A DNA stretch of 64,000 nt, taken from positions 186,001 to 250,000 of the forward strand of contig NW_027252026.1 of assembly GCF_044704955.1 (NCBI RefSeq), in the 5' to 3' direction. The notes under the pieces are model-generated. The model worked only from the letters and a program-made list of their open reading frames with translations. It was not told the DNA's origin and ran no database searches. Source of the stretch: Pristiophorus japonicus (taxonomy: Eukaryota). This document shows, one piece after another, positions 5,712 to 40,121 of this stretch; position 1 is the first letter of the stretch; each line of letters begins with the position of its first letter. The position numbers and the translations under genes were made by a program.

Positions 5712-8700
5712 ATGAGGTCCTACGAAACGAAGTTAAGGAGCTCGGAGCTAAATTAAAAAGTAGGACCTCAAAAGTAGTAATCTCGGGATTGCTACCAGTG
5801 CCACGTGATAGTCAGAGTAGGAATCGCAGGATAGCGCAGATGAATACGTGGCTTGAGCAGTGGTGCAGCAGGGAGGGATTCAAATTCCTGGGGCATTGGA
5901 ACCGGTTCTGGGGGAGGTGGGACCAGTACAAACCGGACGGTCTGCACCTGGGCAGGACCGGAACCAATGTCCTAGGGGGAGTGTTTGCTAGTGCTGTTGG
6001 GGAGGATTTAAACTAATATGGCAGGGGGATGGGAACCAATGCAGGGAGACAGAGGGAAACAAAAAGGAGGCAAAAGCAAAAGACAGAAAGGAAAAGTGGA
6101 GGGCAGAGAAACCCAAGGCAAAGAACAAAAAGGGCCACTGTACAGCAAAATTCTAAAAGGACAAAGGGTGTTAAAAAAAACAAGCCTGAAGGCTTTGTGT
6201 CTTAATGCAAGGAGTATCCGCAATAAGGTGGATGAATTAACTGTGCAAATAGATGTTAACAAATATGATGTGATTGGGATTACGGAGACGTGGCTCCAGG
6301 ATGATCAGGGCTGGGAACTCAACATCCAGGGGTATTCAACATTCAGGAAAGATAGAATAAAAGGAAAAGGAGGTGGGGTAGCATTGATGGTTAAGGAGCA
6401 AATTAAGGCAATAGTTCGGAAGGACATTAGCTTGGATGATGTGGAATCTATATGGGTAGAGCTGCAGAATACCAAAGGGCAAAAAACGTTAGTGGGAGTT
6501 GTGTACAGACCTCCAAACAGTAGTAGTGATGTTGGGGAGGGCATCAAACATGAAATTAGGGGTGCGTGCAATAAAGGTGCAGCAGTTATAATGGGTGACT
6601 GTAATATGCACATAGATTGGGCTAACCAAACTGGAAGCAATACGGTGGAGGAGGATTTCCTGGAGTGCATAAGGGATGGTTTTCTAGACCAATATGTCGA
6701 GGAACCAACTAGGGGGGAGGCCATCTTAGACTGGGTGTTGTGTAATGAGAGAGGATTAATTAGCAATCTCGTTGTGCGAGGCCCCTTGGGGAAGAGTGAC
6801 CATAATATGGTGGTATTCTGCATTAGGATGGCGAATGAAAGAGTTAATTCAGAGACCATGGTCCAGAACTTAAAGAAGGGTAACTTTGAAGGTATGAGGC
6901 GTGAGTTGGCTAGGATAGATTGGCGAATGATACTGAAGGGGTTGACTGTGGATGGGCAATGGCAGACATTTAGAGACCGCATGGATGAACTACAACAATT
7001 GTACATTCCTGTCTGGCGTAAAAATAAAAAAGGGAAGGTGGCTCAACCGTGGCTATCAAGGGAAATCAGGGATAGCATTAAAGCCAAGGAAGTGGCATAC
7101 AAATTGGCCAGAAATAGCACTGAACCCGGGGACTGGGAGAAATTTAGAACTCAGCAGAGGAGGACAAAGGGTTTGATTAGGGCAGGGAAAATGGAGTACG
7201 AGAAGAAGCTTGCAGGGAACATTAAGACGGATTGCAAAAGTTTCTATAGATATGCAAAGAGAAAAAGGTTAGTAAAGACAAACGTAGGTCCCCTGCAGTC
7301 AGAATCAGGGGAAGTCATAACGGGGAACAAAGAAATGGCGGACCAATTGAACAAGTACTTTGGTTCGGTATTCACTGAGGAGGACACAAACAACCTTCCG
7401 GATATAAAAGGGGTCGGAGGGTCTAGTAAGGAGGAAGAACTGATGGAAATCCTTATTAGTCGGGAAACTGTGTTGGGGATATTGATGGGATTGAAGGCCG
7501 ATAAATCCCCAGGGCCTGATGGACTGCATCCCAGAGTACTTAAGGAGGTGGCCTTGGAAATAGTGGATGCATTGACAGTCATTTTCCAACATTCCATTGA
7601 CTCTGGATCAGTTACTATGGAGTGGAGGGTAGCCAATGTCACCCCACTTTTTAAAAAAGGAGGGAGAGAGAAAACAGAGAATTATAGACCGGTCAGCCTG
7701 ACATCGGTAGTGGGTAAAATGATGGAATCAATTATTAAGGATGTCATAGCAGTGCATTTGGAAAGAGGTAATATGATAGGTCCAAGTCAGCATGGATTTG
7801 TGAAAGGGAAATCATGCTTGACAAATCTTCTGGAATTTTTTGAGGATGTTTCCAGTAGAGTGGACAAGGGAGAACCAGTTGATGTGGTATATTTGGACTT
7901 TCAGAAGGCGTTCGACAAGGTCCCACACAAGAGATTAATGTGCAAAGTTAAAGCACATGGGATTCGGGGTAGTGTGCTGACATGGATTGAGAACTGGTTG
8001 TCAGACAGGAAGCAAAGAGTAGGAGTAAATGGGGACTGTTCAGAATGGCAGGCAGTGACTAGTGAGGTACCACAAGGTTCTGTGCTTGGGCCCCAGCTGT
8101 TTACATTGTACATTAATGATTTAGACGAGGGGATTAAATGTAGTATCTCCAAATTTGCGGATGACACTAAGTTGGGTGGCAGTGTGAGCTGCGAGGAGGA
8201 TGCTATGAGGCTGCAGAGCGACTTGGATAGGTTAGGTGAGTGGGCAAATGCATGGCAGATGAAATATGATGTTGATAAATGTGAGGTTATCCACTTTGGT
8301 GGTAAAAACAGAGAGACAGACTATTATCTGAATGGTGACAGATTAGGAAAAGGGGAGGTGCAAAGAGACCTGGGTGTCATGGTACATCAGTCATTGAAGG
8401 TTGGCATGCAGGTACAGCAGGCTGTTAAGAAAGCAAATGGCATGTTGGCCTTCATAGCGAGGGGATTTGAGTACAGGGGCAGGGAGGTGTTGCTACAATT
8501 GTACAGGGCCTTGGTGAGGCCACACCTGGAGTATTGTGTACAGTTTTGGTCTCCTAACCTGAGGAAGAACATTCTTGCTATTGAGGGAGTGCAGCGAAGG
8601 TTCACCAGACTGATTCCCGGGATGGCGGGACTGACCTATCAAGAAAGACTGGATCAACTGGGCTTGTATTCACTGGAGTTCAGAAGAATGAGAGGGGACC

Positions 8701-9090
8701 TCATAGAAACGTTTAAAATTCTGACGGGGTTAGACAGGTTAGATGCAGGAAGAATGTTCCCAATGTTGGGGAAGTCCAGAACCAGGGGACACAGTCTAAG
8801 GATAAGGGGGAAGCCATTTAGGACCGAGACGAGGAGGAATTTCTTCTCCCAGAGAGTGGTGAACCTGTGGAATTCTCTACCACAGAAAGTTGTTGAGGCC
8901 AATTCACTAAATATATTCAAAAAGGAGTTAGATGAAGTCCTTACTACTAGGGGAATCAAGGGGTATGGTGAGAAAGCAGGAATGGGGTACTGAAGTTTCA
9001 TGTTCAGCCATGAACTCATTGAATGGCGGTGCAGGCTTGAAGGGCCGAATGGCCTACTCCTGCACTTATTTTCTATGTTTCTATGTTGCT
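5712..9090 (+). mobile_element. Young CR1 LINE (ORF1 esterase C-terminus + ORF2 + 3' tail)
   Basis: SGNH-esterase C-terminus (DGLHL), full ORF2 and a (tttctatg)n tail. The host Gypsy reads cacacggatga|actggaagcg across the insertion. Confidence 0.95.
6018..8993 (+). CDS. CR1 ORF2: APE endonuclease + reverse transcriptase, uninterrupted 991 aa
   Basis: LNARSI, ITETW, GGGV, YRPP, SDH, YRPVSLTS, QGSVLGP and FADD motifs; GDCN replaces the usual GDFN. Confidence 0.9.
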   Translation: MAGGWEPMQGDRGKQKGGKSKRQKGKVEGRETQGKEQKGPLYSKILKGQRVLKKTSLKALCLNARSIRNKVDELTVQIDVNKYDVIGITETWLQDDQGWELNIQGYSTFRKDRIKGKGGGVALMVKEQIKAIVRKDISLDDVESIWVELQNTKGQKTLVGVVYRPPNSSSDVGEGIKHEIRGACNKGAAVIMGDCNMHIDWANQTGSNTVEEDFLECIRDGFLDQYVEEPTRGEAILDWVLCNERGLISNLVVRGPLGKSDHNMVVFCIRMANERVNSETMVQNLKKGNFEGMRRELARIDWRMILKGLTVDGQWQTFRDRMDELQQLYIPVWRKNKKGKVAQPWLSREIRDSIKAKEVAYKLARNSTEPGDWEKFRTQQRRTKGLIRAGKMEYEKKLAGNIKTDCKSFYRYAKRKRLVKTNVGPLQSESGEVITGNKEMADQLNKYFGSVFTEEDTNNLPDIKGVGGSSKEEELMEILISRETVLGILMGLKADKSPGPDGLHPRVLKEVALEIVDALTVIFQHSIDSGSVTMEWRVANVTPLFKKGGREKTENYRPVSLTSVVGKMMESIIKDVIAVHLERGNMIGPSQHGFVKGKSCLTNLLEFFEDVSSRVDKGEPVDVVYLDFQKAFDKVPHKRLMCKVKAHGIRGSVLTWIENWLSDRKQRVGVNGDCSEWQAVTSEVPQGSVLGPQLFTLYINDLDEGIKCSISKFADDTKLGGSVSCEEDAMRLQSDLDRLGEWANAWQMKYDVDKCEVIHFGGKNRETDYYLNGDRLGKGEVQRDLGVMVHQSLKVGMQVQQAVKKANGMLAFIARGFEYRGREVLLQLYRALVRPHLEYCVQFWSPNLRKNILAIEGVQRRFTRLIPGMAGLTYQERLDQLGLYSLEFRRMRGDLIETFKILTGLDRLDAGRMFPMLGKSRTRGHSLRIRGKPFRTETRRNFFSQRVVNLWNSLPQKVVEANSLNIFKKELDEVLTTRGIKGYGEKAGMGY

Positions 9091-11660: not shown

Positions 11661-12400
11661 TGCACTCCAAGGTCCCTCTGTTCCTCTACACTTCTCATTG
11701 TCCTACCATTTATTGTATATTCCCTTGCCTTGTTAGCCCTTCCCAAATGCATTACCTCACACTTCTCCGGATTGAATTCCATTTGCCACTGTTCTGCCCA
11801 CGCGACCAGTACATTGATATCTTTCCTACAGTCTACAGCTTTCTTCTTCATTATCAACCTTACAAAAAATGGTAGTATCATCTACAAACTTCTTAATCAT
11901 ACCCTCTATATTCAAGTCTAAATCATTGATATATACCACAAAAAGCAAGGGAACTTGTACTGAGCCCTGTGGAACCCCACTGGAAATAGCCTTGCAGACA
12001 CAAAAGCACCCATCGACCATTACCCTTTGCTTCCTTCCTCCAAGCCAATTTTGGATCCAACTTGTCACTTTGCCCTGTATCTCATGGGCTTTACCCTTCA
12101 TGACCAGTCTACCATGTGGGACCTTATCAAAAGCCTTGGTAAAACCCATATATACTACATCGTACGCACTACCCTCATCAAACCTCCTTGTTACCTCCAC
12201 ATAAATTCAGTCAAGTTAGTCAGACACTATCTTCCCTCAAAAAATCCATGTTGACTGTCCTTGATTAATCTGTGAATTTCGAAATGAAGATTTATCCTAG
12301 CCCTCAGAATGTTTTCCCATAATTCTCCCACCACCGACTTTAGGCTGATAGGCCTGCAATTCTCGGTCTATCCCTTTCTCATTTTTTAAACAACAGTATA
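11660..12400 (-). mobile_element. CR1 RT fragment (different subfamily)
   Basis: ORFs 11826-12200 and 11648-11881 with KAFDKVPH, QGSV, KFVDDT and WQMEFNPEKC. Confidence 0.85.
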
Positions 12401-12401
12401 A

Positions 12402-13210
12402 TGGGCAGGGGGAGAGAGAGAGAGAGAGAGAGACAGTGAACAGGCGGGGAGAAAGAGAGAGGCCACGATTGGGCAGGTGAGAGAGAAAGGCCATGATCGG
12501 GCAGGGAGAGAGAGAGGCCATGATTGGGTGGAAGAGAGAGAGAGACCACGATCGGGTGGGGGGGAGAGAGAGAAAGGCCATGATTGGGCGGGAGAGAGAT
12601 AGAGACCATGAACAGGTGGGGAGAGAGAGAGGGCTCGATTGGGTGGGGAGAGAGAGAGAGAGGCCATGATCGGGCGAGGGGGAGAGAGAGAGAGGCCACG
12701 ATTGGGCAGGGGAGAGAGAGAGGCCACGATCGGGCGAGGGGGAGAGAGAGAGAGGCCACGATTGGGCAGGGGAGAGAGAGAGGCCACGATCGGGCAGGGA
12801 GAGAGAGAGGCTACAATCGGGCAGGGAGAGAGAGAGAGGCCTCGATTGGGCAGGGAGAGAGAGAGGCTACGATCGGGCAGGGAGAGAGAGAGGCTACAAT
12901 CGGGCAGGGGAGAGAGAGAGGCCACGATTGGGCAGGGAGAGAGAGAGGCTACGATCGGGCAGGGAGAGAGAGAGGCTACAATCGGGCAGGGGAGAGAGAG
13001 AGGCTACGATCGGGCAGGGAGAGAGAGAGGCCACGATCGGGTGGGGGAGAGAGAGAGGCTACGATCGGGCAGGGAGAGAAAGAGGCCATGATTGGGCGAG
13101 GGAGAGGGGGGAGAGAGAGAGAGAGAGACCATGATCGGGTGGGGGGAGGTGCGGGAGGGGAGGGAGAGAGAGGGCATGATTGGGGGAGGGGGAAGGGAAA
13201 GGAGAGAGTG
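12402..13210 (+). repeat. GA-rich minisatellite, ~27-33-bp unit (GA)nGGC(C/T)ACGATCGGGCAGG
   Basis: About 25 variable tandem copies are visible. The overlapping ORFs are low-complexity artefacts. Confidence 0.9.
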
Positions 13211-13458: not shown

Positions 13459-13616
13459 CTGTTAAAAACAAATTGAGTTTGGCCCAGATTTCACCCTCCA
13501 TTCTGTAGTTAAAACTCAGTGTTACTGTAAAAGGAACAGCTTGTATAACATTTAAACAAGATGCTTGTACATAACATTATTAGGTATAAAACCAATATAA
13601 CATAGAAGGTACTTAC

Positions 13617-13965
13617 TGGTTACTTTCAGCCGGGTTCCATTTCCATAGATTGTTCCCCAAAATACCACAGATATAGACAGCGCTGTCTCTGCGCTGCATA
13701 CCTCTGATGGTCAGAATGTAGCTGTTACTGGCATCATCTCTGGAGAGCTGGAACCGCTCAGAGAAACCGTGTGATTGGTCAACCCTGCCATCTGCACAAT
13801 GAGTAAATATTTTGTGTTTCCTATCCTGTGAGAGGTACCAGTGTACAGTATATTTATCCACATTCACATTGCTGCTCTCCAGGGTACACCGAAACTTCAC
13901 CATCCCACCCTCGGGCACCGTCACAACTTCTGGGGACTGGATAAGAACCGGACTTGTCTTTAGAC
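13617..13965 (-). pseudogene. Germline-joined V-J immunoglobulin-superfamily exon (non-rearranging antigen-receptor-like or light-chain-like) with a 1-nt frameshift
   Basis: Acceptor ttcacAG at 13967-13966 and donor GTAAGT at 13616, both phase 1. V-set hallmarks are B-strand Cys (FRC), HWY, RF, LTI and DSAVYIC. A J motif YGNGTRLKVT follows in a frame shifted by one base. The exon is 349 nt (348+1). Confidence 0.85.
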
Positions 13966-14099
13966 CTGTGAATAGTAAATAACTGATGATCAGAACAGAT
14001 GAGGAACAACAAAAAGTAATAACTTGAAATGGAAGTGGCGATGAGGTCACGACGCGTGTGTGTAACCCCGCTCTACCCTTCACTTAAGGTGAGAGTATT

Positions 14100-19247: not shown

Positions 19248-21295
19248 CTCAATGGACGACTGCTGAAAACTTGCGAATTAAGAGCCAGACTAGCCTTGGA
19301 CGAGACGAGGGGAAAGTGGCCACTGGAGTAAGTATACTTTCAATACTGCTCCAGTTTCCCCCGGTTTCAAAAGTCTGAGGAAAGTTTAGCCACTCGCTGG
19401 TTCTCAGGTAGTGTCTGAACGAGATCCAGGACAATCTGGTGAATACCTTTCAAACTTAGAATAGGGATAGAGATAGGGAAATTGCGCGGTGACGCAAACC
19501 AAGCGGCGACTCGGAAAGATAGGTTAGAAGAGGTAAGTCTGCCTGGGTTCAAGGCCCAGAGCCTGCCTGGGTTCGAGGCCCAGTGTCTGTGTGGGTTCGA
19601 GGCCCAAGTAAAACCGCGCGGCAACGCGGAGAGAGAGAGAGAATCGCGCGAACCGCGTAGGGAAACGCGGAGGTTAGGGAATTACGTAAAATTAAGCCGC
19701 GGGACTGCGCGGGACTGTGTAAATTTTAAATTGTATTTACGCCAGGTACGGCGTCAATCTTGTACATCACTTGGTCCACCTAGACTCTGGGTAAGATAAC
19801 TGAAACCACCACGGGGCGACGTGGAGACAATCAGGACTAATTAGGACCCTGATCCAACGTGCGGTGACCAGGATGGGTAATTTAGATAAAACTACGAATT
19901 CCCTGAAAGGTCATGGATCCAAAAATAGAGCCGGCCAAAACAATTAATAGGAAAGAAGAAAGACTCTTGTGAACGTCTGTTTTAAATGAGAAATGCTTGT
20001 GTGATTTTTACTGTGGAAAAGAAAGCCGGGGAGTTGTGGTTTGTTTTAGCTCCACCCACTTTTTCAAACAGAATGAAAGTTTTTTTAACCCTTCGTAGTG
20101 TTGTCCTGTATGTGGGAAGTTTAAGAGTGTGAGCCTTATTGAATTACGTATATTCGGATGATAAGTTATGAAGCCAGGAAATGCACAAAGGATAGGTTTG
20201 TTGAGTAAAAAAAGAAAAAATACATGGTCCCGGTGGTTAAAAAAGGATTTGACATGCTCACTTACTTGTCGAAAGAAAACATGCAATGATTGATTACATT
20301 ACAAAGTTTGAATCGGGATTTTGAGATATTCAGAGAAGGCACAGCAAAACAACTGAGATGGATTCAAAAGGATTCAAAAAAAATATATGATATTAAATCT
20401 GCAGTTTAGAAGAAATAGTATAACACGACCTTGAGGCTGGAACAATTGAGATAACGAAAAGCAGTCCACAGCCTACGTGCCAGACTTCCCTCTAGTTATG
20501 GAAAAGATGAAAAAAAAGACGTAATGTACTAAATAGGTGCTGAAAAAAAAATGTTCTGAGATTTTAAATTATGAGAAAAGTTCCATTGCAGTCTAAAAAA
20601 AAATGCATCACTCCTGTCGAGTTGGCAGAAAAACTCCATTAAATTAGGGCTTTCATTGACAGAAGGAGGACATATTAAAAACTGTCGACGTCTTAAAGAA
20701 AGAGTGCACGCACAAGAAATGCACTCAGAATTCCACTGGGACCTCTGAGAAAGGTATCGATAGACTACGTAGTTAAAATGGTTGGCTTTGCATTCACTGA
20801 GGCTGATGACGAAATTGAATTTCAGTAAACAAATAGTTATTAAAAATGTGTGGTCTCGTTTTAAATCAATTAAAAAAATATCTTTGGTGAGTACTTGAAT
20901 AAGAAGTTAAAAAATATTGGAGTTTAATCAAATGCTGCCTTTCCTGATGAAAAGATTTTTTTTTCAGATGGTTACGCGAAGTCACGTAATGACATCAGGT
21001 CTTCTTACAAACCTGTAAAGGAGTTAACCCTTTCCATTGACAGCTGTTTCATACTGAACATTATCAATTTGGATTTCTTAATAGAAAAAAGACTCACCTA
21101 ACAGAGGAATGGTGCGATAGTCAGAATAAAAATAAAAACAGAACTAGCTTATGTAATAATACTTGCCTGATACAATAAAGAAATAGATACTCAAACAAAA
21201 CAAATTGAAGAGTTAAAAGGCTAAGATAAATAAGCTGAAAGGGATCCACAAACCCAACTTAACCCTGACCTCCGATTTCACGGAGTGACCTCGAC

Positions 21296-22170
21296 ATGCA
21301 TGGATATAATGCAGAATCAAGGGACCTGTGGGCCCTGGTAAAGCAAACCCTGAGCCCAACTGAGCAAGCCCGATTTCTAACTCACCTAGGATGTGCTACT
21401 CATGATGCATTGTTGGTTGCTCACCCTAACGATGTCCAGGATCGCCTAAACACTAATGCTCTCACCACGACCCTTCAGAAGCCCATCAGTATGGCCGCAG
21501 TATTAGAAACTAAACCCAAACGAGAAGAAACTGCCGATGAATTCATGGAAAGTTTTATTGAAATATACGGAAGTCAATCAGGAGATAATGCCTTCAGGGC
21601 AGGAGAGGATTCTCCTCAATTCTGCGCTATCCTACTTCAGTGCCTGCCCTATTCGGTTGCTCACGCTCTCCGGACAAATAATATGAATTGGGCAGATAAC
21701 AGTAAAGACCAGATGGAGAGGGCGGTTAAATATTATTGGCAGGAAAAGAAAGGAGAGGGGGGAGGTGCGCCCCCAACCCGGGTCAAGACTGAATACGTGA
21801 CGAGAAAGGAAGAGCCGCCTCGGGTGGAAGGACCAAAACCCGACCCAAGGGGATACCAGATGGAACCGCAGTGTTGTGTGCAGGGTTGGTGGATAAACAG
21901 GGATACGGTTATATCAAACACCCAAATGGCCCGAGCCCTGCTAATTACGGACTGCCCTACGGGGCCTGGTATGGAAAGAGGTTGGGGCTGGGAGATGGAT
22001 GCTTTATTTGTGGGCAAGAAGGACATTGGAATAGAAATTGTCCCTCCCGTCAGCACGAAAAAGGAAGAGGAGGAAGAGGAGGGGGGCAAGGGGGGAGAGG
22101 ACGGGGATCTTGCACTAACTTCTCCCAGAACAACCCCTTTGGCCAACCGTCCCCCGATTATTCGTATTGA
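21296..22170 (+). pseudogene. gag: ERV gag (capsid C-terminus and nucleocapsid), frameshifted
   Basis: MHR-like KPKREETADEFMESF, one CCHC knuckle and an RGG-rich tail; split over two frames. Confidence 0.85.
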
Positions 22171-24987
22171 CTATGTAGCTTGGTTGTGCAGGGACCCTCC
22201 CCGGATGATGAACCGATGATATTGTTAAAAATTCAGAATGAGTGGCAACCCTTCTTGATAGATACGGGAGCCTTCATTTCTTCTGTACAATCAAAGCTGA
22301 AACTCCCCGCCTTCACTGAAACACAGGGACTGTCAGGATTCCTGGGACAAGTCTCTCCATTCCCGATGTCAGAACCGGTTAAAATGGGTTACCAGGAAGA
22401 ATCGGTGGAACATCGATTTGTTATCACAACCAATCTGGACTGTAACTTGATGGCTAGAGACCTCCTCTGCAAATTCCAGTTGCATTTGGAGTGTGGAGAT
22501 GATGGGATTATTGTAAAACAAGGAACCCTTAAGCGGCAGTATTATACCACTAGAACCCCTCAGTGGTGGTCTCTGGACCTGCCGCAGGCACCCTATCACG
22601 TGACCCTAGCACACGATCCCAGTGGAAAGAATCAGGACCTGCAGAACTTTTATCAGGATCACGAAGGGGAAGTGAAGGAAATTCTATTAAGGGCTAGAGT
22701 GACTGGACCGGAAGGGAAGGCAGATTTTGTGGAAATGGACAGCCCCCAACGGTGGCACCACATATTACTCGTGAAGTATTACCTCCCCACCACGCTAAAG
22801 ATTTGGGAGTTATGGTGCGCTAGGCTATAGACGAGGCTGACCCTACCAGCCGGGATGTGCAAATTGTAAAACATGGCCGAACAGTCCAATTCCACGGGGA
22901 CCCCGAGATGGTCTTAACGACTCTGCAGCATCATACTGGCTCTGACATACCTGACTATGTGGATCCTCATTGTGGGAAGAGGACCCCTCCCAAGTGGGTT
23001 ATACTCCCATTGATCCGATTGAGATCCCAGTGCAGGGCAATGTGGACTGGCCCTCTATCCGACAGTACCCACTGAAAACACAGGCAATACCGAGTATTCA
23101 CCGAGCTCTGGAGGCTAGCCGAGTTGAACCAATTTGCCAGTTTCCAGTCCCTAGCATGGCTAAACAAATGCGCCAGTGGTTGGGGATGATCAATTACTGC
23201 AGATCCTGGATCCCTAATGTTGCCCTGATGACTAAGCACCTCACCCCGTATACAAATAAGGAAGGCAGCTTTGAAATAGAAACCGCAGACGTCCAAGCCT
23301 TTAAGGAACTAAAGACAGCCCTGCTGCAAGCTCCAGCTTTGGTCCGGCCCCTCTATGACCTTTCAACTGTATTGTACAATCCTGAAAGACTGTGCTACCG
23401 TTGTCTTAACACCTCTCACTCCGTAGCTGCCCTCCTGGGCCAGCTGCAGACTCAACACCTTACCATGGCCAGGCAAAGCAGATATGAGATCTACCTACTA
23501 AACAATCCTTAGCTGACCTTTCGGCACTGTACTGCAATTAATCCGGCCTGTTTTCTTACTGAGCCGCCCCAAGATGAGGAAGAACCCAGTCATGACTGTT
23601 TATCTTTAATTCAAGAGGCCACATCAGTCAGGGGAGATTTAGTTGATGTACCAATGGAAGATCCAGACTGTATTATGTATGTTGACGGAAGTTCTTCTAT
23701 TAATCCAGAAGGTACACGAATCTCAGGATACGCCATAGTAAACCAGGAGAATCAGGTCTTGAAATCTGCCGCCTTTGAAACCGCCTATTCTGCCCAACAA
23801 GCTGAACTATTCACCCTCACCCGAGCCTGTCTCTTGGCCAAAGACCTCAAAGTCAATATCTATACCGACTCTAGGTATGCCTTTGGGGTGGCCCATGATT
23901 TCGGACAATTATGGAAAAATAGGGGATTCCTAACCTCACAGGGGAATGAGATATTCCATAAGCAACTAGTATCTGATTTGTTGCAAGCCCTCATGCTCCC
24001 CAAGCACATTGCCGTTGTTAAATGTACCGCCCACACCACCGGAAAATCCCCGGTTGATATCGGGAACCACTGTGCTGACAAAGAAGCTAAACAGGCCTCT
24101 CGTGACCAACAGATGGTAGTGTCCAAAATGATGAGTCAGACTAAAAAATCCTGCGAAGGATAAGTTAGCCTCGGAAAAACCAATGCCAACCATCCAAGAT
24201 GTTATTAAAGCACAGGAGGACGCTCCTGAAAAAGAAAAACTGTTGTGGAAAAATTATGGATGTACTTATGACAATGTTTCTAAACTCTGGACCACTCCCG
24301 CGGAACAGACTTGCATGTCTGATGAGTTGGCTCTATGGGTTATTGAATGTATGCATTTTTGCTACTCATTGTGGAGCAAGGACCACGAGTGACACACTTT
24401 TGGCTACTTGGTGGCATCCTAGACTCCAGGCGCTCGCCCAGAACATCAGTAGTCGTTGCCTGGTTTGCCAGCAACATAATCCAGGGAAGGAAGTCCCCTG
24501 TGATTGGGGTAAAATGCCCCTACCCGAAGGTCCCTTTGAGACATTTCAGTTGGACTACATTGAGTTGCAAAAAGTTCAGTGTTACAAATATGTGTTAGTA
24601 ATAGTAGATGTGTTTAGCAGGTGGATTGAAGCCTACCCTACCCTGGACAATAAGGCTCAAACTGTTGTTAAGGTGTTAATGAGGGAAATTGTTCCTAGAT
24701 ATGGTATCTCAGCTCGACTGATGACCACCTATGTTCTTTCTCTGACTCAGGCTCTGCGACTAGCTCACAACCAGGTTCGAGAGGCTCACCTCGATCTCCC
24801 AGTTTTACCCAAATCGTCCCTCATGGTACCTGGGAAGTATGTCCTGATTAAGAGGTGGATTCGGAAGGGATTGGAGCCACAATGGGAGGGTCCTTTTCAG
24901 GTGTTATTCACTACCCCCACTGCAGCCAAGGTTGAGGGGAGAAGTGCCTGGGTTCACCTGCACCACTGCAAGCTCACCACCCCCTAA
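22171..24987 (+). pseudogene. pol: ERV pro-pol (protease, 2H phosphoesterase, deleted RT, RNase H, partial integrase)
   Basis: DTGA; HVT (22597) and HIT (22761); RT jumps from IRQYPL to the thumb region (WLGMINYCRSWIPN) with no YxDD; the integrase core is cut at ~24718. Confidence 0.9.
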
Positions 24988-25357
24988 CAAACCTATTTTA
25001 CTGGTTATTCTAACTCCTGTTTCTGTTCCAGACTTCCTCTTCTCCATAGCTGAACAAGGCCGTTGACATCCTAATTGTAACGTGGACCAGTTTGAACTTT
25101 TACCCGTAGTGATAGACAGCCAGCTACACCGACGGTGACCTAAGAAGAGAGACGGGAGAACCGAACTCTTTTAATCAGCAAAATAATTGGACTATTTATC
25201 TGAATCCTGAGCCATAAGATGAAACTGTGTCTGTATGCCACAGTCTGTATAATATGACAGTTTCGGCGCATGGGAGGGGAGACAGAGAAGAGAGCTCCAT
25301 GTAAACACCTTTTTGTACATGTCTTATGTTTATGCGCAATATGGGAACTTTTCTTGA

Positions 25358-26656
25358 TGCTGGGTGTGCTCACATATCCCTATACATTCCAAAGGGGGTA
25401 TTCCTTTACGCCCCGTTCCACTGACCCTAACTGAGACTGTCAAGTGGCTTCTGAGCCAGACTAGCATGAGCGGAGGGGGGCCAATGCAAATACGAGAGAG
25501 GAAAGGCGGGTCAAAAGAGGGGTCACAGAGATCAGGAGGCGTATTATACCGTTACCACATGAATGACCACGGGGAGGTCACCAAGTGGGAGAGTGCTGGA
25601 GACCCCATTAGTCAGATGTCCCAGGGATGGTACCAACCAATCTACGACTGTGGAAAGGAACCCCCATTCTTAGCTCTGACCAATACCTCGGGGATTGGGA
25701 GGCCAACCGGGGACATATGTCGAACCCGAAATGACACCAGTAACAAGGGACATATCATAGGGTACAGCAAATGCCCACACAATCTCAACATCACCACAGG
25801 TGCACGAGTCACCATCCTCTCTCACCTTCCGAGTAAAACAGGTGGAGGTTTGTGGGCCCAGTCCTGGGACCCGGAAGCAATATATCAGAAAGCAGCTTTT
25901 AACGGCACGTATTTCGTGTACGGTCATAAGGCATATCCTTGGTTGCCCAGGCGATGGACAGGGTCCTGTTATCTGGGATATGTGGTGCCATTTGTGCGGC
26001 AAGTACGTACCCTGGCGGAAGCACATGCCTCCAGCCGATACAAGCGAGCCATCACCCCCGTCGACAAGTTCTTTGGGGTCATGATGTTCCCAATCAGGAT
26101 AAGACGTCTCACGGATGAAGTACAGAACCTAGAGACGATATTGGAACAGATAGCTAACAATACTGCTGAAGCTCTGGAGGGCATCATAGCTGAAATGGTA
26201 GCAATAAGGACCGTAGCATTACAAAACCGAATGGCCCTCGATTACCTGTTAGCTGAGAAAGGGGGAACGTGTGCCCTGATAGGATCTGAATGTTGCACTT
26301 ACATTCCCGATAGTTCAGAAAACATAACCAATCTCGCTGGTCACATAAGAAGGGAGGTGAAGAAGTTATCCACACCAGCAGAAGGATCTAACTGGTTTGA
26401 TGGGCTATCAGATGGATCTTGGAGATCCTATCTAATGCATGGGGCAATTATTCTCATCGTAGTAATAATTGCCTGTTGTTTGATTGTTGGTTGCCTTAAC
26501 CTTTGTTGTAAAGTAATGATGGCAAGGTTAGCAAATCCTCTTGTGGTCAAGGGCTCCCGAGTTATGATCCAACGAACTAAAGAACTAATCGACACTAACA
26601 ACAATATGATTCAGGAAATAGAGTGTGAACGGATGAATGCAATACTCCTAGAATGA
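25358..26656 (+). CDS. env: ERV env (SU-TM), open from CWVC to the C-terminus; signal-peptide region broken by stops
   Basis: CWVC, furin site RYKR, immunosuppressive domain LQNRMALDYLLAEKGG, CX6CC and a hydrophobic TM helix. Confidence 0.9.
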   Translation, partial: CWVCSHIPIHSKGGIPLRPVPLTLTETVKWLLSQTSMSGGGPMQIRERKGGSKEGSQRSGGVLYRYHMNDHGEVTKWESAGDPISQMSQGWYQPIYDCGKEPPFLALTNTSGIGRPTGDICRTRNDTSNKGHIIGYSKCPHNLNITTGARVTILSHLPSKTGGGLWAQSWDPEAIYQKAAFNGTYFVYGHKAYPWLPRRWTGSCYLGYVVPFVRQVRTLAEAHASSRYKRAITPVDKFFGVMMFPIRIRRLTDEVQNLETILEQIANNTAEALEGIIAEMVAIRTVALQNRMALDYLLAEKGGTCALIGSECCTYIPDSSENITNLAGHIRREVKKLSTPAEGSNWFDGLSDGSWRSYLMHGAIILIVVIIACCLIVGCLNLCCKVMMARLANPLVVKGSRVMIQRTKELIDTNNNMIQEIECERMNAILLE

Positions 26657-29308: not shown

Positions 29309-32300
29309 ATAGAAACATAGAAACATAGAAAATAGGTGCAGGGGCAGGCCATTCAGCCCTTCTAGCCTGCACCGCCATTCAATGAGTTCATAGAAACATA
29401 GAAACACAGAAACATTGAAAATAGGTGCAGGAGTAGGCCATTCGGCCCTTCTAGCCTGCACCGCCATTCAATGAGTTCATGGCTGAACATTCAACTTCAG
29501 TACCCCATTCCTGCTTTCTCGCCATACCCCTTGATCCCCCTAGCAGTAAGGACCTCATCGAACTCCTTTTTGAATATATTTAGTGAATTGGCCTCAACAA
29601 CTTTCTGTGGTAGAGAATTCCACAGGTTCACCACTCTCTGGGTGAAGAAGTTCCTCCGCATCTCGGTCCTAAATGGCTTACCCCTTATCCTTAGACTGTG
29701 ACCCCTGGTTCTGGACTTCCCCAACATTGGGAACATTCTTCCTGCATCTAACCTGTCTAACCCCGTCAGAATTTTATATGTTTCTATGAGGTCCCCTCTC
29801 ATTCTTCTGAACTCCAGTGAATACAAGCCCAGTTGATCCAGTCTTTCTTGATAGGTCAGTCCCGCCATCCCGGGAATCAGTCTGGTGAACCTTCGCTGCA
29901 CTCCCTCAATAGCAAGAATGTCCTTCCTCAGGTTAGGAGACCAAAACTGTACACAATACTCCAGGTGTGGCCTCACCAATGCCCTGTACAACTGTAGCAA
30001 CACCTCCCTGCCCCTGTACTCAAATCCCCTTGCTATGAAGGCCAACATGCCATTTGCTTTCTTAACCGCCTGCTGCACCTGCATGCCAACCTTCAATGAC
30101 TGATGTACCATGACACCCAGGTCTCTTTGCACCTCCCCTTTTCCTAATCTGTCACCATTCAGATAATAGTCTGTCTCTCTGTTTTTACCACCAAAGTGGA
30201 TAACCTCACATTTATCCACATTATACTTCATCTGCCATGCATTTGCCCACTCACCTAACCTATCCAAGTCGCTCTGCAGCCTCACAGCATCCTCCTCGCA
30301 GCTCACACTGCCACCCAACTTAGTGTCATCCGCAAATTTGGAGATACTACATTTAATCCCCTCATCTAAATCATTAATGTACAGTGTAAACAGCTGGGGC
30401 CCCAGCACAGAACCTTGCGGTACCCCACTAGTCACTGCCTGCCATTCTGAAAAGTACCCATTTACTCCTACTCTTTGCTTCCTGTCTGACAACCAGTTCT
30501 CAATCCATGTCAGTACACTACCCCCAATCCCATGTGCTCTAACTTTGCACATCAATCTCTTGTGTGGGACCTTGTCGAACGCCTTCTGAAAGTCCAAATA
30601 TACCACATCAACTGGTTCTCCCTTATCCACTCTACTGGAAACATCCTCAAAAAATTCCAGAAGATTTGTCAAGCATGATTTCCCTTTCACAAATCCATGC
30701 TGACTTGGACCTATCATGTCACCTCTTTCCAAATGCACTGCTATGACATCCTTAATAATTGATTCCATCATTTTACCCACTACCGATGTCAGGCTGACCG
30801 GTCTATAATTCCCTGTTTTCTCTCTCCCTCCTTTTTTAAAAAGTGGGGTTACATTGGCTACCCTCCACTCCATAGGAACTGATCCAGAGTCAATGGAATG
30901 TTGGAAAATGACTGTCAACGCATCCACTATTTCCAAGGCCACCTCCTTAAGTACTCTGGGATGCAGTCCATCAGGCCCTGGGGATTTATCGGCCTTCAAT
31001 CCCATCAATTTCCCCAACACAATTTCCCGGCTAATAAGGATTTCCCTCAGTTCCTCCTCCTTACTAGACCCCCCGACCCCTTTTATAACCGGAAGGTTGT
31101 TCGTGTCCTCCTTCGTGAATACCGAACCAAAGTACTTGTTCAATTGGTCCGCCATTTCTTTGTTCCCCGTTATGACTTCCCCTGATTCTGACTGCAGGGG
31201 ACCTACATTTGTCTTTACTAACCTTTTTCTCTTTACATATCTATAGAAACTTTTGCAATCCGTCTTAATGTTCCCTGCAAGCTTCTTCTCATATTCCATT
31301 TTCCCTGCCCTAATCAAACCCTTTGTCCTCCTCTGCTGAGTTCTAAATTTCTCCCAGTCCCCAGGTTCGCTGCTATTTCTGGCCAATTTGTATGCCACTT
31401 CCTTGGCTTTAATACTATCCCTGATTTCCCTTGATAGCCACGGTTGAGCCACCTTCCCTTTTTTATTTCTATGCCAGACAGGAATGTACAATTGTTGTAG
31501 TTCATCCATGCGGTCTCTAAATGTCTGCCATTGCCCATCCACAGTCAACCCCTTAAGTATCATTCGCCAATCCATCTCAGCCAATTCACGCCTCATACCT
31601 TCAAAGTTAGCCTTCTTTAAGTTCTGGACCATGGTCTCTGAATTAACTGTTTCATTCTCCATCCTAATGCAGAATTCCACCATATTATGGTCACTCTTCC
31701 CCAAGGGGCCTCGCACAACGAGATTGCTAATTAATCCTTTCTCATTACATAACACCCAGTCTAAGATGGCCTCCCCCCTAGTTGGTTCCTCGACATATTG
31801 GTCTAAAAAACCATCCCTTATGCACTCCAGGAAATCCTCCTCCACCGTATTGCTTCCAGTTTGGCTCGCCCAATCTATGTGCATATTAAAGTCAACTATT
31901 ATAACTGCTACACCTTTATTGCACGCACCCCTAATTTCCTGTTTGATGCCCTCCCCAACATCACTACTACTGTTTGGAGGTCTGTACACAACTCCCACTA
32001 ACGTTTTTTGCCCTTTGGTGTTCTGCAGCTCTACCCATAAAGATTCCACATCATCCAAGCTAATGTCTTTCCTAACTATTGCATTAATCTCCTCTTTAAC
32101 CAGCAATGCTACCCCACCTCCTTTTCCTTTTATTCTATCCTTCCTGAATGTTGAATACCCCTGGATGTTGAGTTCCCAGCCCTGATCATCCTGGAGCCAC
32201 GTCTCCGTAATCCCAATCACATCATATTTGTGAACGTCTATTTGCACAGTTAATTCATCCAATTTATTGCGGATACTCCTTGCATTAAGACACAAAGCCT

Positions 32301-32858
32301 TCAGGCTTGTTTTTTTAACACCCTTTGTCCTTTTAGAATTTTGCTGTACAGTGGCCCTTTTTGTTCTTTGCCTTGGGTTTCTCTGCCCTCCACTTTTCCT
32401 CATCTCCTTTCTGTCTTTTGCTTTTGCCTCCTTTTTGTCTCCCTCTGTCTCTCTGCATTGGTTCCCATCCCCCTGCCATATTAGTTTAACTCCTCTCCAA
32501 CAGCACTAGCAAACACTCCCCCTAGGACATTGGTTCCGGTCCTGCCCAGGTGCAGACCATCCGGTTTGTACTGGTCCCACCTCCCCCAGAACCGGTTCTA
32601 ATGCCCCAGGAATTTGAATCCCTCCCTGCTGCACCACTGCTCAAGCCACGTATTCATCTGCGCTATCCTGCGATTCCTACTCTGACTAGCACGTGGCACT
32701 GGTAGCAATCCCGAGATTACTACTTTTGAGGTCCTACTTTTTAATTTAGCTCCTAGCTCCTTAAATTCGTTTCGTAGGACCTCATCCCTTTTTTTACCTA
32801 TGTCGTTGGTACCAATGTGCACCACGACAACTGGCTGTTCTCCCTCCCATTTCAGAAT
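29309..32858 (-). mobile_element. Young CR1 LINE (ORF1 SGNH esterase part + ORF2 + duplicated 3' end)
   Basis: VVVHIGTNDIG esterase motif, 968-aa ORF2 and a (tttctatg)n tail; CATTCA on both flanks. Confidence 0.95.
29497..32403 (-). CDS. CR1 ORF2 endonuclease-RT, uninterrupted 968 aa
   Basis: All APE and RT motifs are present; nearly identical to 6018-8993. Confidence 0.92.
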   Translation of the reverse strand: MRKSGGQRNPRQRTKRATVQQNSKRTKGVKKTSLKALCLNARSIRNKLDELTVQIDVHKYDVIGITETWLQDDQGWELNIQGYSTFRKDRIKGKGGGVALLVKEEINAIVRKDISLDDVESLWVELQNTKGQKTLVGVVYRPPNSSSDVGEGIKQEIRGACNKGVAVIIVDFNMHIDWASQTGSNTVEEDFLECIRDGFLDQYVEEPTRGEAILDWVLCNEKGLISNLVVRGPLGKSDHNMVEFCIRMENETVNSETMVQNLKKANFEGMRRELAEMDWRMILKGLTVDGQWQTFRDRMDELQQLYIPVWHRNKKGKVAQPWLSREIRDSIKAKEVAYKLARNSSEPGDWEKFRTQQRRTKGLIRAGKMEYEKKLAGNIKTDCKSFYRYVKRKRLVKTNVGPLQSESGEVITGNKEMADQLNKYFGSVFTKEDTNNLPVIKGVGGSSKEEELREILISREIVLGKLMGLKADKSPGPDGLHPRVLKEVALEIVDALTVIFQHSIDSGSVPMEWRVANVTPLFKKGGREKTGNYRPVSLTSVVGKMMESIIKDVIAVHLERGDMIGPSQHGFVKGKSCLTNLLEFFEDVSSRVDKGEPVDVVYLDFQKAFDKVPHKRLMCKVRAHGIGGSVLTWIENWLSDRKQRVGVNGYFSEWQAVTSGVPQGSVLGPQLFTLYINDLDEGIKCSISKFADDTKLGGSVSCEEDAVRLQSDLDRLGEWANAWQMKYNVDKCEVIHFGGKNRETDYYLNGDRLGKGEVQRDLGVMVHQSLKVGMQVQQAVKKANGMLAFIARGFEYRGREVLLQLYRALVRPHLEYCVQFWSPNLRKDILAIEGVQRRFTRLIPGMAGLTYQERLDQLGLYSLEFRRMRGDLIETYKILTGLDRLDAGRMFPMLGKSRTRGHSLRIRGKPFRTEMRRNFFTQRVVNLWNSLPQKVVEANSLNIFKKEFDEVLTARGIKGYGEKAGMGY

Positions 32859-34920: not shown

Positions 34921-36266
34921 GATGTACAACCATAATGATGTAATCATATGTAACGTCTCTTGTTCACATTTATTGCAGTAATGTTGCTCCTCGTACATAT
35001 GCCAGCACAGCGCAAGCATTCTCCTGTCTACCCTTCTGTTCCAATAACCTCAATGATGATTTGCAGGTCCCGAGACTCTCGAGGTGCGAAGGGAGGCCCC
35101 TCCACGGACGCCTGTGCCATTGCAGGTGGTCATCACCACGGGTCCAGAGGAGACTACTGAGGAGGAGGAAGATGACCAATTGTCATCTGTTGTACCTGCG
35201 GCCACGTCTTCATGGGCGGATGAAGTAGCGGGGCCAAGCGGCTTGCAGCAGGCCACTCCAAGGTGCACAGTGCCCACGCTGACCCCACGGAGGTTGATTC
35301 GGCGAGATAGGCATGCACTGCGACAGGCAGATCCTACTGAGGACCTGGTGGCACTGTCCAGGGACAGTGTCCATATCGGTCGACAGCTGCTCCAGGCGAT
35401 TGGTGGGTTGACCGGAAACACTGCCGCAATGTCCACATGAATATCGGAGGGCATGGAGCGGATAGTTTTGGTGGTCCCATCTGCAATTGTTGTCCTCTCC
35501 TGATAGCTAGGTTCTACAACATGCAGCACACCACAATAAGCTCCGCGACCTGCTCAGGGTGGTATTGCAGGTTACCTCCTGAGTGGTCCAGGCATCTGAA
35601 GCGCTGTTTAAGCACTCCAATTGACTTTCTAACGACATTGCATGTCGCTATATGGCTTTCATTGTAGCACTTCTCGGCTTCCATCTGGGCCTTACGCAGG
35701 GGGGTCATGAGCCAGCTGGCAAGGTCATATCCTTTATCCCCCAGCATCCAACCGTGACCTTGTGGCTGACTCTTAAACAGGTCAGAGACAGTGATCCCAT
35801 GCAAGATGTGTGCATCATGGATGCTGCCTGGATAATTGCATTTATTGCCAGGATTATTTGCTTGTGGTTGACAACGAGCTGCACGTTCAGGGAGTGGAAT
35901 CCTTTTCGCTTCCAAAGTATCTCTACATCCTGAAAAGGTGCTCACAGGGCGATGTGCGTACAGTCTATTGCTCCCTGCACCTTGAGGAAGTTTGCTATTT
36001 GCGAGAAACCCAAAGCCCTCTCAATCTGTGCCTTCCTGGTCATAGGGAAGTTTATAAAGTCCATCCTGAGTGCGTAAAGGGCTTCAGTCACCTGTCGAAT
36101 GGAGCAGTGTGTGTCGGGCGTGCTGATAGCTTCCGCAAATGTCGCCAGCTGAGGTTTGAAAGGAGCCCGATGCGTAGAAGGAAAGTGCCGCAGTAACCTT
36201 AACCTCAACAGGCAGTGCAGTCCTGATGGTGCTGGTAGACTGCAGATCTCCCTTGATGAGCTGGCA

Positions 36267-37200
36267 TAAGTTGGGTGGCAGTGTGAGCTGCGAGGAGGAT
36301 GCTGTGAGGCTGCAGAGCGACTTGGATAGGTTAGGTGAGTGGGCAAATGCATGGCAGATGAAGTATAATGTGGATAAATGTGAGGTTATCCACTTTGGTG
36401 GTAAAAACAGAGAGACAGACTATTATCTGAATGGTGACAGATTAGGAAAAGGGGAGGTGCAAAGAGACCTGGGTGTCATGGTACATCAGTCATTGAAGGT
36501 TGGCATGCAGGTGCAGCAGGCGGTTAAGAAAGCAAATGGCATGTTGGCCTTCATAGCAAGGGGATTTGAGTACAGGGGCAGGGAGGTGTTGCTACAGTTG
36601 TACAGGGCATTGGTGAGGCCACACCTGGAGTATTGTGTACAGTTTTGGTCTCCTAACCTGAGGAAGGACATTCTTGCTATTGAGGGAGTGCAGCGGAGGT
36701 TCACCAGACTGATTCCCGGGATGGCGGGACTGACCTATCAAGAAAGACTGGATCAACTGGGCTTGTATTCACTGGAGTTCAGAAGAATGAGAGGGGACCT
36801 CATAGAAACATTTAAAATTCTGACGGGGTTAGACAGGTTAGATGCAGGAAGAATGTTCCCAATGTTGGGGAAGTCCAGAACCAGAGGTCACAGTCTAAGG
36901 ATAAGGGGTAAGCCATTTAGGACCGAGATGCGGAGGAACTTCTTCACCCAGAGAGTGGTGAACCTGTGGAATTCTCTACCACAGAAAGTAGTTGAGGCCA
37001 ATTCACTAAATATATTCAAAAAGGAGTTAGATGAAGTCCTTACTACTAGGGGAATCAAGGGGTATGGCGAGAAAGCAGGAATGGGGTACTGAAGTTGAAT
37101 GTTCAGCCATAAACTCATTGAATGGCGGTGCAGGCTAGAAGGGCCGAATGGCCTACTCCTGCACCTATTTTCTATGTTTCTATGTTTCTATATGTTTCTA
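36267..37200 (+). mobile_element. Young 5'-truncated CR1 inserted into the Harbinger transposase
   Basis: Near-identical to the 3' end of the copies at 5712 and 29309. Removing it restores ISEICQ in the transposase frame. Confidence 0.93.
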
Positions 37201-37604
37201 TCTCACTGATGTCCTCCTTTCGGAAGCGCAGCCTCCTAACGCACATGTTATCGGACAAGTTCAGCTATGATCACTTTTCCCTGTAAATGCGTTGGGTGTA
37301 AGGTCTCCTCCTCTGCACCATTCTGCCAACTATTTGATTGGACACATAATGCTCTTCAATATACCTTCTCCCATCGTCAGTCTGCAGCATGTGATTAGTG
37401 ACCAATACTGGCTGAGAAATTACAGGCCCATCACTATCAATCACTAGAAATGCCCTTCATTTGTCCTCAACAGATACAAATGTGATTAGATGATTGGCAA
37501 GGGTCAAAAAGGCCCTTAAACTCACTCAGAGATTGATTCTCCTCACAAACACTTGAAGCAGCTTTTCAGTACAGATCCTCCGACTGTCGAAAAGGCGTCG
37601 GTAG

Positions 37605-39633: not shown

Positions 39634-40121
39634 GCACCGACTTAAGGTCAGGTGAGTGCAGCTTTTTTTCAGCGACTTTTTCGACCAGCGACCATTTCGG
39701 CGAAGTGTGGGCAAAATGCCGGAAGTTGCGGTGGCGATAAATGGGCGATAATCGGGCACAAGTTTCCAGTTTCAGCACTATTCTCGGCCTGGCACGCAGA
39801 TGACGTCATATATTTTTTAAACTTAAGCCGGGCGATGCAGCACATTGATGTGTGCCAAAAGTTTGGCCGGGTGCTAGTTTCCACTTTCTGGCAAAAATGG
39901 GCAATAGCCTGTATCTCAGCATTAAATGGGCGATAAATGGGTGATAAATGGGCGATAAATGGGTGATAAATGGGCGATAAGTGGGCGATAAATGGGCAAT
40001 AAATGGGTGATAAATGGGCGATAAATGGGTGATAAATGGGCGATCAATAGGCGTAAATGGGCTATAAGTGGGCGATAAATGGGGGATAAATTGAGCGATG
40101 ATGTGCCGAAAGTCTAGTCCC

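What the first reader, a model, noticed from the sequence alone, without database searches (positions are those of the whole stretch)
13617..13965. Germline-joined V-J Ig exon without RSS: non-rearranging antigen-receptor-like gene, one base from intact
Seen: a complete V-set domain and a J-type G-x-G-T-x-L-x-V strand in one exon, with perfect phase-1 splice sites and no heptamer/nonamer between them. Deleting one base from the 4-nt homopolymer at 13659-13662 gives …DSAVYICGIWGTIYGNGTRLKVT and a 348-nt exon. Known: cartilaginous fish have germline-joined Ig light chains and non-rearranging VJ-type IgSF genes (NKp30 family, MHC-linked antigen-receptor-like genes). Inference: the very short CDR3, YGNG instead of FGxG, extra Cys in THC and lambda/VpreB-like GFSERF.SRD.SN framework suggest a divergent non-rearranging receptor family. 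It is either a recent pseudogene or an intact gene with a homopolymer assembly error.
Basis: partly seen in the sequence, partly recalled or inferred. Interest (0 to 1): 0.78.

Follow-up and report, generated by a model that had tools for sequence, protein, structure and literature searches.

The report
Shark light-chain-like paired receptor pseudogene
This is a broken, many-times-duplicated piece of a gene from a large, apparently unnamed family of shark, ray and chimaera membrane proteins built from ready-joined, antibody-light-chain-like domains, whose intact members carry tails predicted to switch immune cells on or off.

Summary
The joined V-J exon, its splice sites, the missing RSS and the +1 base are real. 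It is not an assembly error or one base from intact: 18 of 49 close paralogues, on 12 contigs, carry the same extra base, and this clade has also lost its leader, transmembrane and first ITAM exons. The exon is domain 1 of a dead activating member of a clustered family of receptors with 1-9 tandem single-exon VJ domains and no C1 domain. Intact members end in ITIM/ITSM or ITAM tails. The family is seen in 22 elasmobranchs and a chimaera, bears only automatic names, and sits on another chromosome than the MHC class I, IgL and IgH matches. Its V domains group with Ig sigma-2 light chains (98/80 and 86/92 support) rather than lambda, with a junction fixed at 6 residues (205 of 206 domains). Origin from a germline-joined sigma-2 VJ is likely but its direction is not proven. 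Ten literature searches found no description; subscription journals are not held. Expression could not be checked. The scan's notes held no look-alike of this protein.

The parts
13617..13965 (-). Domain-1 VJ exon (349 nt) of a truncated, ITAM-type multi-VJ receptor pseudogene
   Evidence: best match to domain 1 of family proteins, 83% identity
13659..13662 (-). T4 run (T3 in in-frame paralogues): +1 frameshift shared by 18 copies
13618..13659 (-). J-like G strand, out of frame with the V in this copy; 6-residue junction typical of the family
13611..13616 (-). Splice donor GTAAGT; the next exon (domain 2) lies outside the window at C1414:182786-183127 and has its own small deletions; the remnant second ITAM exon is at C1414:164163-164207
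13966..14037 (-). Splice acceptor and the last ~72 bp of intron still homologous to intact genes; homology ends here (5' truncation, leader exon absent)

Best explanation
The exon is domain 1 of a truncated, frameshifted copy of what was likely an activating (ITAM-tailed) member of a cartilaginous-fish family of clustered membrane proteins made of tandem single-exon VJ domains, which are predicted to work as paired activating and inhibitory immune receptors and whose V domain likely descends from the Ig sigma-2 light-chain lineage. Shown: gene anatomy of intact paralogues (leader, 2-3 VJ exons, TM, tail exons), two tail types, loss of leader/TM/first ITAM exon and the shared +1 base in this clade, spread of the broken unit in >100-kb duplicated blocks about 97-98% identical. 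Inferred: intact receptors bind a ligand through the variable C-C'' face of domain 1 and signal through SHP-type phosphatases (ITIM/ITSM) or Syk-type kinases (ITAM); the broken copy makes no receptor; its exon still exchanges sequence with intact domain-1 exons by gene conversion; the extra base arose once by slippage after truncation or near it.
For: Intact gene on the same contig: leader 403640, D1 375303, D2 346983, D3 339614, TM 337569, tail exons to 300305. 18 ITIM-type TM exons and 4 ITAM-type TM exons in this genome. Of 63 family proteins with a TM, 11 have an ITAM pattern (8 named shark and ray species), 41 ITIM/ITSM only, 11 neither (14 of the 41 are cluster mates from one species). 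Remnant exon plus ~500 bp flank is 94% identical to the second ITAM exon of the 4 intact ITAM genes, and sits behind D2 with no TM exon found in all 9 clade copies examined. 0 of 19 clade copies have a leader within 179 kb, against 15 of 30 other copies within 35 kb. Horn shark Ig sigma-2 finds family D2 exons first in this genome (48%); trees join family + sigma-2 + single-exon VJ-C1 genes at 98/80 (102 rows) and 86/92 (46 rows); an all-IgL clade without the family is rejected, p-AU 0.024. Exon diversity in the broken clade 0.0315 against 0.010-0.012 in flanks (Fisher p 3e-5), 20 of 44 polymorphisms shared with in-frame copies, 102 of 351 site pairs fail the four-gamete test. pN/pS about 1.0 in the broken clade, 1.5 in 28 open copies, 2.1 in their C-C'' region.
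Against: No read or expression data were obtained. Trees rest on 100 columns; the bootstrap of the large tree had not settled, family monophyly is 87/92 in one tree and unresolved in the other; outgroups were picked by likeness to the family. A tree joining the family with NITR/SIRP-like rows is not rejected (p-AU 0.255) and family+lambda is borderline (0.053). 7 of the 20 shared polymorphisms could be repeated CpG changes. pN/pS values use non-independent pairs. One clade copy (C3248:219706) is in frame. Many contigs are unplaced and may be redundant haplotypes (17 distinct exons among 19). For 12 of 19 clade copies no upstream leader is on the contig at all, some near contig ends. Signalling is inferred from motifs only.
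Confidence: 0.8

Rival explanations
1. Intact gene with a homopolymer assembly error.
For: The break is in a 4-nt run; one clade copy has T3; splice sites are perfect.
Against: 18 copies on 12 contigs share the base; leader, TM and first ITAM exons are missing and domain 2 has its own deletions.
Confidence: 0.02
2. An orphan germline-joined Ig light chain VJ, out of frame because RAG joined it imprecisely in germ cells.
For: The shift lies at the V-J junction; out-of-frame joined light-chain genes exist in sharks (four of six in frame, PMC2193156 section 23); V is sigma-2-like.
Against: No C1 exon in the window or on family contigs among 150 scored of 970 C1 candidates; next exon is another VJ; junction is 6 residues in 205 of 206 family domains against 8-12 in 8 sigma-2/VJ-C1 chains; the shifted clade nests among in-frame paralogues.
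Confidence: 0.03
3. The family is a relic of the unsplit VJ gene that predates RAG (like UrIg/NKp30), and sigma-2 is its split descendant or sister, rather than its source.
For: Single-exon VJ in all members from chimaera to rays; clade also holds single-exon VJ-C1 genes; forced grouping with non-rearranging outgroups not rejected (p-AU 0.255); order inside the family+sigma-2 clade is unresolved.
Against: Confined to cartilaginous fish in two searches while sigma-2 also occurs in gar, coelacanth and turtles (PMC5985310); not with the MHC or IgH matches; V sits among Ig V families, not basal to them.
Confidence: 0.3
4. The truncated copies are functional, as gene-conversion donors that diversify domain 1 of intact receptors or as soluble decoys.
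For: V frame stays open up to the shift in 15 of 18 shifted copies; exon-limited sequence sharing with intact genes.
Against: No leader or start; pN/pS about 1.0; copies are young (about 1% flank divergence), so open frames need no selection; direction of conversion unknown; the shifted tail is in none of the stored proteins.
Confidence: 0.12

Closest known systems
Ig sigma-2 (sigma-cart, NS5, type I) light chains, often germline-joined (PMC5985310, PMC4279169)
   Same: Nearest named V domain (48% to domain 2; shared clade in both trees); VJ in one exon as in gar, coelacanth and turtle sigma-2 genes; split leader.
   Different: No C1; 1-9 tandem VJ domains; TM and tyrosine-motif tail; fixed 6-residue junction; N-glycan sequons in the G strand; no octamer within 1 kb of the one intact leader checked; separate chromosome.
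UrIg and UrIg2 (PMC12227049, PMC10751288)
   Same: Elasmobranch, non-rearranging single-exon VJ, split leader.
   Different: UrIg/UrIg2 are single genes with one VJ plus 3-11 C1 domains in the MHC or the IgH/TCR complex; this family has only VJ domains, dozens of copies and ITAM/ITIM tails.
NKp30/NCR3 and PRARP (named in PMC10751288; details recalled)
   Same: Non-rearranging VJ membrane receptors.
   Different: Recalled as single-V and, for NKp30, MHC-linked and adaptor-coupled; this family is multi-V, away from the MHC class I cluster, with its own ITAM. No named sequence of either was compared.
Teleost NITR and skate MDIR paired receptor families (PMC3031540, passages)
   Same: Multigene activating/inhibitory IgSF families of fish.
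   Different: MDIRs are CD300/TREM/pIgR-like and no hit bore that name; NITRs are V plus C2-type; rows I labelled NITR-like fall outside the family's clade.
Mammalian paired receptors with converting ectodomains and dead activating copies (KIR, Siglec-5/14; recalled)
   Same: Shared ectodomain, opposite tails, exon-limited exchange, loss of activating copies.
   Different: Not homologous; here the ITAM is in the receptor's own tail and the domain is antibody-like.

Membership tests
Rearranging Ig/TCR V segment | RSS after V and separate J | tested here: not met
   best pair has 5 mismatches; V and J in one exon
Ig light chain (incl. germline-joined sigma-2) | V domain of the sigma-2 lineage | tested here: met
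   moderate support
Ig light chain (incl. germline-joined sigma-2) | One C1 exon after VJ | tested here: not met
   next exons are VJ, TM, tail
Ig light chain (incl. germline-joined sigma-2) | Octamer promoter | tested here: inconclusive
   none within 1 kb of one intact leader; present in 3 of 3 lambda-type stretches but also absent near the single-exon VJ-C1 gene on C23
UrIg/UrIg2 | One VJ plus three or more C1 domains | tested here: not met
UrIg/UrIg2 | Location in MHC or IgH/TCR complex | tested here: not met
   family anchored on C9; MHC-I cluster C19, IgH-type C1 on C23/C27
NKp30/NCR3 | MHC linkage | tested here: not met
   C19 as the MHC is inferred from 22 class I matches and PMC10751288
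NKp30/NCR3 | Sequence orthology to NKp30 | not tested
   no named NKp30 sequence was retrieved; one row was labelled NKp30-like from recall only
PRARP | Orthology and synteny with chicken PRARP | not testable with these tools
   paper not held; no named sequence found
MDIR | CD300/TREM-like domains; identity to skate MDIR1-4 | tested here: inconclusive
   0 of 38 and 0 of 119 hits named MDIR though skate proteins were query and hits; no direct alignment
Paired activating/inhibitory IgSF receptors (functional class) | Like ectodomains with ITIM/ITSM and ITAM tails in one cluster | tested here: met
Paired activating/inhibitory IgSF receptors (functional class) | Leukocyte expression and opposite signalling | not testable with these tools
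   no read data obtained; motifs only
Intact gene | Leader, open frame, TM and tail exons | tested here: not met

The most novel reading that the evidence does not exclude
An undescribed, >400-million-year-old cluster of paired ITAM/ITIM immune receptors of cartilaginous fish, built by multiplying a germline-joined Ig sigma-2 light-chain VJ exon: a direct case of a RAG-joined antibody gene turned into an innate-type receptor, as Lee et al. 2000 proposed without an example, and a candidate shark NK/myeloid receptor complex.
Probability: 0.4. Interest if true: 0.85.

Novelty: new variant of a known kind. Interest (0 to 1): 0.62.

Why it matters
The copy in the window is a pseudogene, but it marks a family that bears on two open questions. 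First, whether single-exon VJ genes are relics from before RAG or products of RAG acting in germ cells: Lee et al. 2000 wrote that their idea of a rejoined Ig gene becoming a new receptor had no direct example, and this family is a testable candidate, with a sigma-2-like V, no C domain and its own signalling tails. Second, which paired receptors shark leukocytes use: a single expanding cluster with 18 inhibitory-type and 4 activating-type TM exons, a variable domain 1 and mass pseudogenisation of an activating form fits a receptor family under pathogen or self-ligand pressure. It also warns that single-exon VJ status alone does not make a gene a pre-RAG relic.

Tried and rejected
Raw-read and expression check: no runs were obtained, so the base call and expression rest on paralogues only. 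MHC class II Pfam search found nothing (uninformative). PDB sequence searches and a fold search of the AlphaFold model of a naturally in-frame paralogue (pLDDT 87) gave generic antibody V domains only, no UrIg2 or NKp30 among the rows shown. Search at near length found 1 protein. A true sigma-2 gene did not appear among 150 scored of 1522 candidates in this genome; absence is not shown. Rejected: IgL cluster (no C1), assembly error, RAG out-of-frame joint, special role of the extra Cys. Tests that did not reject rivals: family+lambda p-AU 0.053, family+NITR/SIRP-like 0.255. Literature: 10 searches found no paper naming the family; Ohta 2019, Flajnik 2023 (UrIg), Fu 2019 (PRARP) and Ohta and Flajnik 2015 were not held; the elephant shark genome paper's held supplement had no match for sigma, ITIM or ITAM and may not include its immune notes. 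No complex prediction was run. Synteny of C9 with human paralogons was not examined.

Full report
Observation. The minus strand holds a 349-nt exon at 13617-13965 with canonical phase-1 splice sites. It encodes a V-set domain whose J-like G strand is one base out of frame because of a 4-nt run at 13659-13662. No RSS is near it. The window has no other Ig exon and no C1 motif; the rest is repeats.

Not an assembly error. The own genome (5.9 Gb, window on contig C1414) holds at least 54 matches of 66% or more to this domain, plus one split copy. I examined 51 (all 49 at 77% or more, 2 of the 5 at 66-69%). Eighteen, on 12 contigs, share the extra base; with one in-frame copy they form a clade of 19; of the 30 other close copies 28 are open and 2 have a stop. 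The clade has 17 distinct exon sequences; unplaced contigs may include redundant haplotypes, so counts are upper bounds for one haploid set.

What the exon belongs to. Relatives are membrane proteins with a leader, 1-9 tandem VJ domains, a TM segment and a tyrosine-motif tail. A profile search gave 119 hits, 115 of them family proteins from 22 shark and ray species, all under automatic names; within a species they mostly share one longest-contig length, which suggests one cluster. Chimaera members were found and named. The nearest named proteins are from a sawshark. An intact gene lies on the window's contig: leader, three VJ exons, TM and three tail exons over 103 kb. Of 75 family proteins scanned, 63 have a TM; 11 of these carry an ITAM pattern, 41 ITIM/ITSM only, 11 neither (motif consensus recalled; 14 of the 41 are cluster mates from one species). 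This genome has 18 ITIM-type and 4 ITAM-type TM exons, plus weaker matches to further TM types.

State of this copy. Homology to intact genes ends about 72 bp upstream of the exon; no leader lies between it and the end of the next gene 100 kb upstream. No clade copy has a leader within 179 kb, while 15 of 30 other copies have one within 35 kb and 11 have none on their contig. Domain 2 follows 16.5 kb downstream, outside the window, with its own small deletions; splicing to it from the shifted exon would meet a stop after 33 codons (read). Beyond it there is no TM exon, only a 43-nt exon that with its flank is 94% identical to the second ITAM exon of the four intact ITAM genes; the same layout holds in all 9 clade copies examined. 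The unit was spread in blocks of over 100 kb at about 97-98% identity. So this is a truncated, frameshifted former activating receptor (type inferred from the remnant exon).

Ongoing exchange. In the clade the exon is three times as diverse as its flanks (0.0315 against 0.010 and 0.012; 44 of 350 against 44 of 839 sites, p 3e-5); 20 of 44 variants also occur in in-frame copies, 7 of them possibly CpG changes, and 102 of 351 site pairs are incompatible. Gene conversion is the simplest reading; direction is unknown. pN/pS is about 1.0 in 17 clade copies and 1.5 in 28 open copies, 2.1 in their C-C'' region (pairs not independent).

Origin of the domain. The best non-family single domains are Ig sigma-2 light chains (95-120 bits; one is named Igsigma-2 by its source, the others were grouped by likeness), then single-exon or unassigned VJ-C1 chains (83-88 bits), then lambda (67 or less). 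Horn shark sigma-2 finds family domain-2 exons first in this genome (48%). Framework trees join family, sigma-2 and VJ-C1 rows at 98/80 (102 rows; bootstrap not settled) and 86/92 (46 of the 102 rows, family itself 87/92). An all-light-chain clade without the family is rejected (p-AU 0.024), but family plus NITR/SIRP-like rows is not (0.255) and family plus lambda is borderline (0.053). Outgroup labels other than sigma-2 are mine, from recalled motifs. The junction between Cys104 and the J anchor is 6 residues in 205 of 206 matched family domains, against 8-12 in eight sigma-2/VJ-C1 chains: one ancient join or an unsplit ancestor, not repeated RAG joins.

Location. Anchored copies lie at C9:0.65-6.24 Mb. 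MHC class I matches: 22 of 41 on C19, none on C9 or family contigs; elasmobranch class Ib genes map only to the MHC (PMC10751288, passages). Light-chain-type C1 matches are on C8 and heavy-chain-type on C23/C27; none of 150 scored of 970 candidates is on a family contig.

Comparison with the literature. UrIg and UrIg2 are VJ-C1n genes (PMC12227049: abstract and parts 1-3 of 8 read). Sigma-2 is germline-joined in gar, coelacanth and turtles (PMC5985310, passages) and mixed in sharks (PMC4279169, passages). MDIR and NITR are described as CD300-like and V-C2 paired families (PMC3031540, passages). The elephant shark genome paper gave nothing relevant in passages or the one held supplement. Ten searches found no account of this family, but several key papers and most subscription journals are not held, so a prior name remains possible.

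Verdict. The copy is an ordinary young pseudogene; the family it exposes is a new variant of a known kind (paired IgSF receptors; non-rearranging VJ genes) with an antibody-light-chain-like domain. Confidence 0.8 in the anatomy and receptor reading, about 0.4 that it is both undescribed and derived from a RAG-joined sigma-2 gene. Interest 0.62.

Noticed in passing
G000:C9:4433058-4442226 (-), loci L093/L094: A domain-2-type VJ exon runs in frame into about 2,925 residues of 11-residue repeats resembling the J strand, with 203 N-glycan sequons, no stop in this frame (231 and 59 in the other two) and a canonical phase-1 donor at the end. A bamboo shark protein (P0071) shows the same V plus Asn-rich repeat layout. 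Possibly a family member on a very long glycan stalk.
   Followed up: partly
G000:C23:8901838-8902188 (-), L098: Single-copy, single-exon VJ followed by a light-chain-like C1 exon (apparently frameshifted) on the IgH-bearing chromosome; its closest relatives in the genome are family domain-2 exons; orthologue in Heptranchias (P0173). Possibly a sigma-2-like or PRARP-like gene.
   Followed up: partly
whole genome search: No close sigma-2 light-chain gene appeared among 150 scored of 1522 candidates when searched with horn shark sigma-2; loss or assembly gap.
   Followed up: no
G000:C3:316.6-319.3 Mb: Nine near-identical MHC class I alpha1-alpha2 matches without the usual intron, inside open frames of 419-777 aa, away from the C19 cluster.
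   Followed up: no
G000:C23:3513990-3514316 (+), L175/L176: Split V with an RSS-like end and a light-chain-like C1 about 12 kb downstream; did not group with any light-chain type in the trees.
   Followed up: partly
window 21269-26656 (+): Endogenous retrovirus-like stretch: protease, RNase H, integrase and env matches in separate frames; broken in several places.
   Followed up: partly
window 6012-8993 (+) and 29497-32505 (-): Two LINE elements with unbroken endonuclease/reverse-transcriptase frames of 993 and 1002 aa; the first lies in this gene's intron and is absent from two paralogous blocks.
   Followed up: partly
window 35514-36385 (-): DDE_Tnp_4 (Harbinger-type, label recalled) transposase fragment interrupted by a LINE piece.
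   Followed up: no
window 37500-39700, 12300-13150 and 54700-64000: A 10-bp satellite, a GA-rich minisatellite and an array of about 2-kb units of retroelement-like sequence.
   Followed up: no
G000:C3248:219706-220050 (-), L007/L011: The one in-frame copy inside the broken clade; still lacks leader and TM. Reversion, short conversion tract or base-call error.
   Followed up: partly
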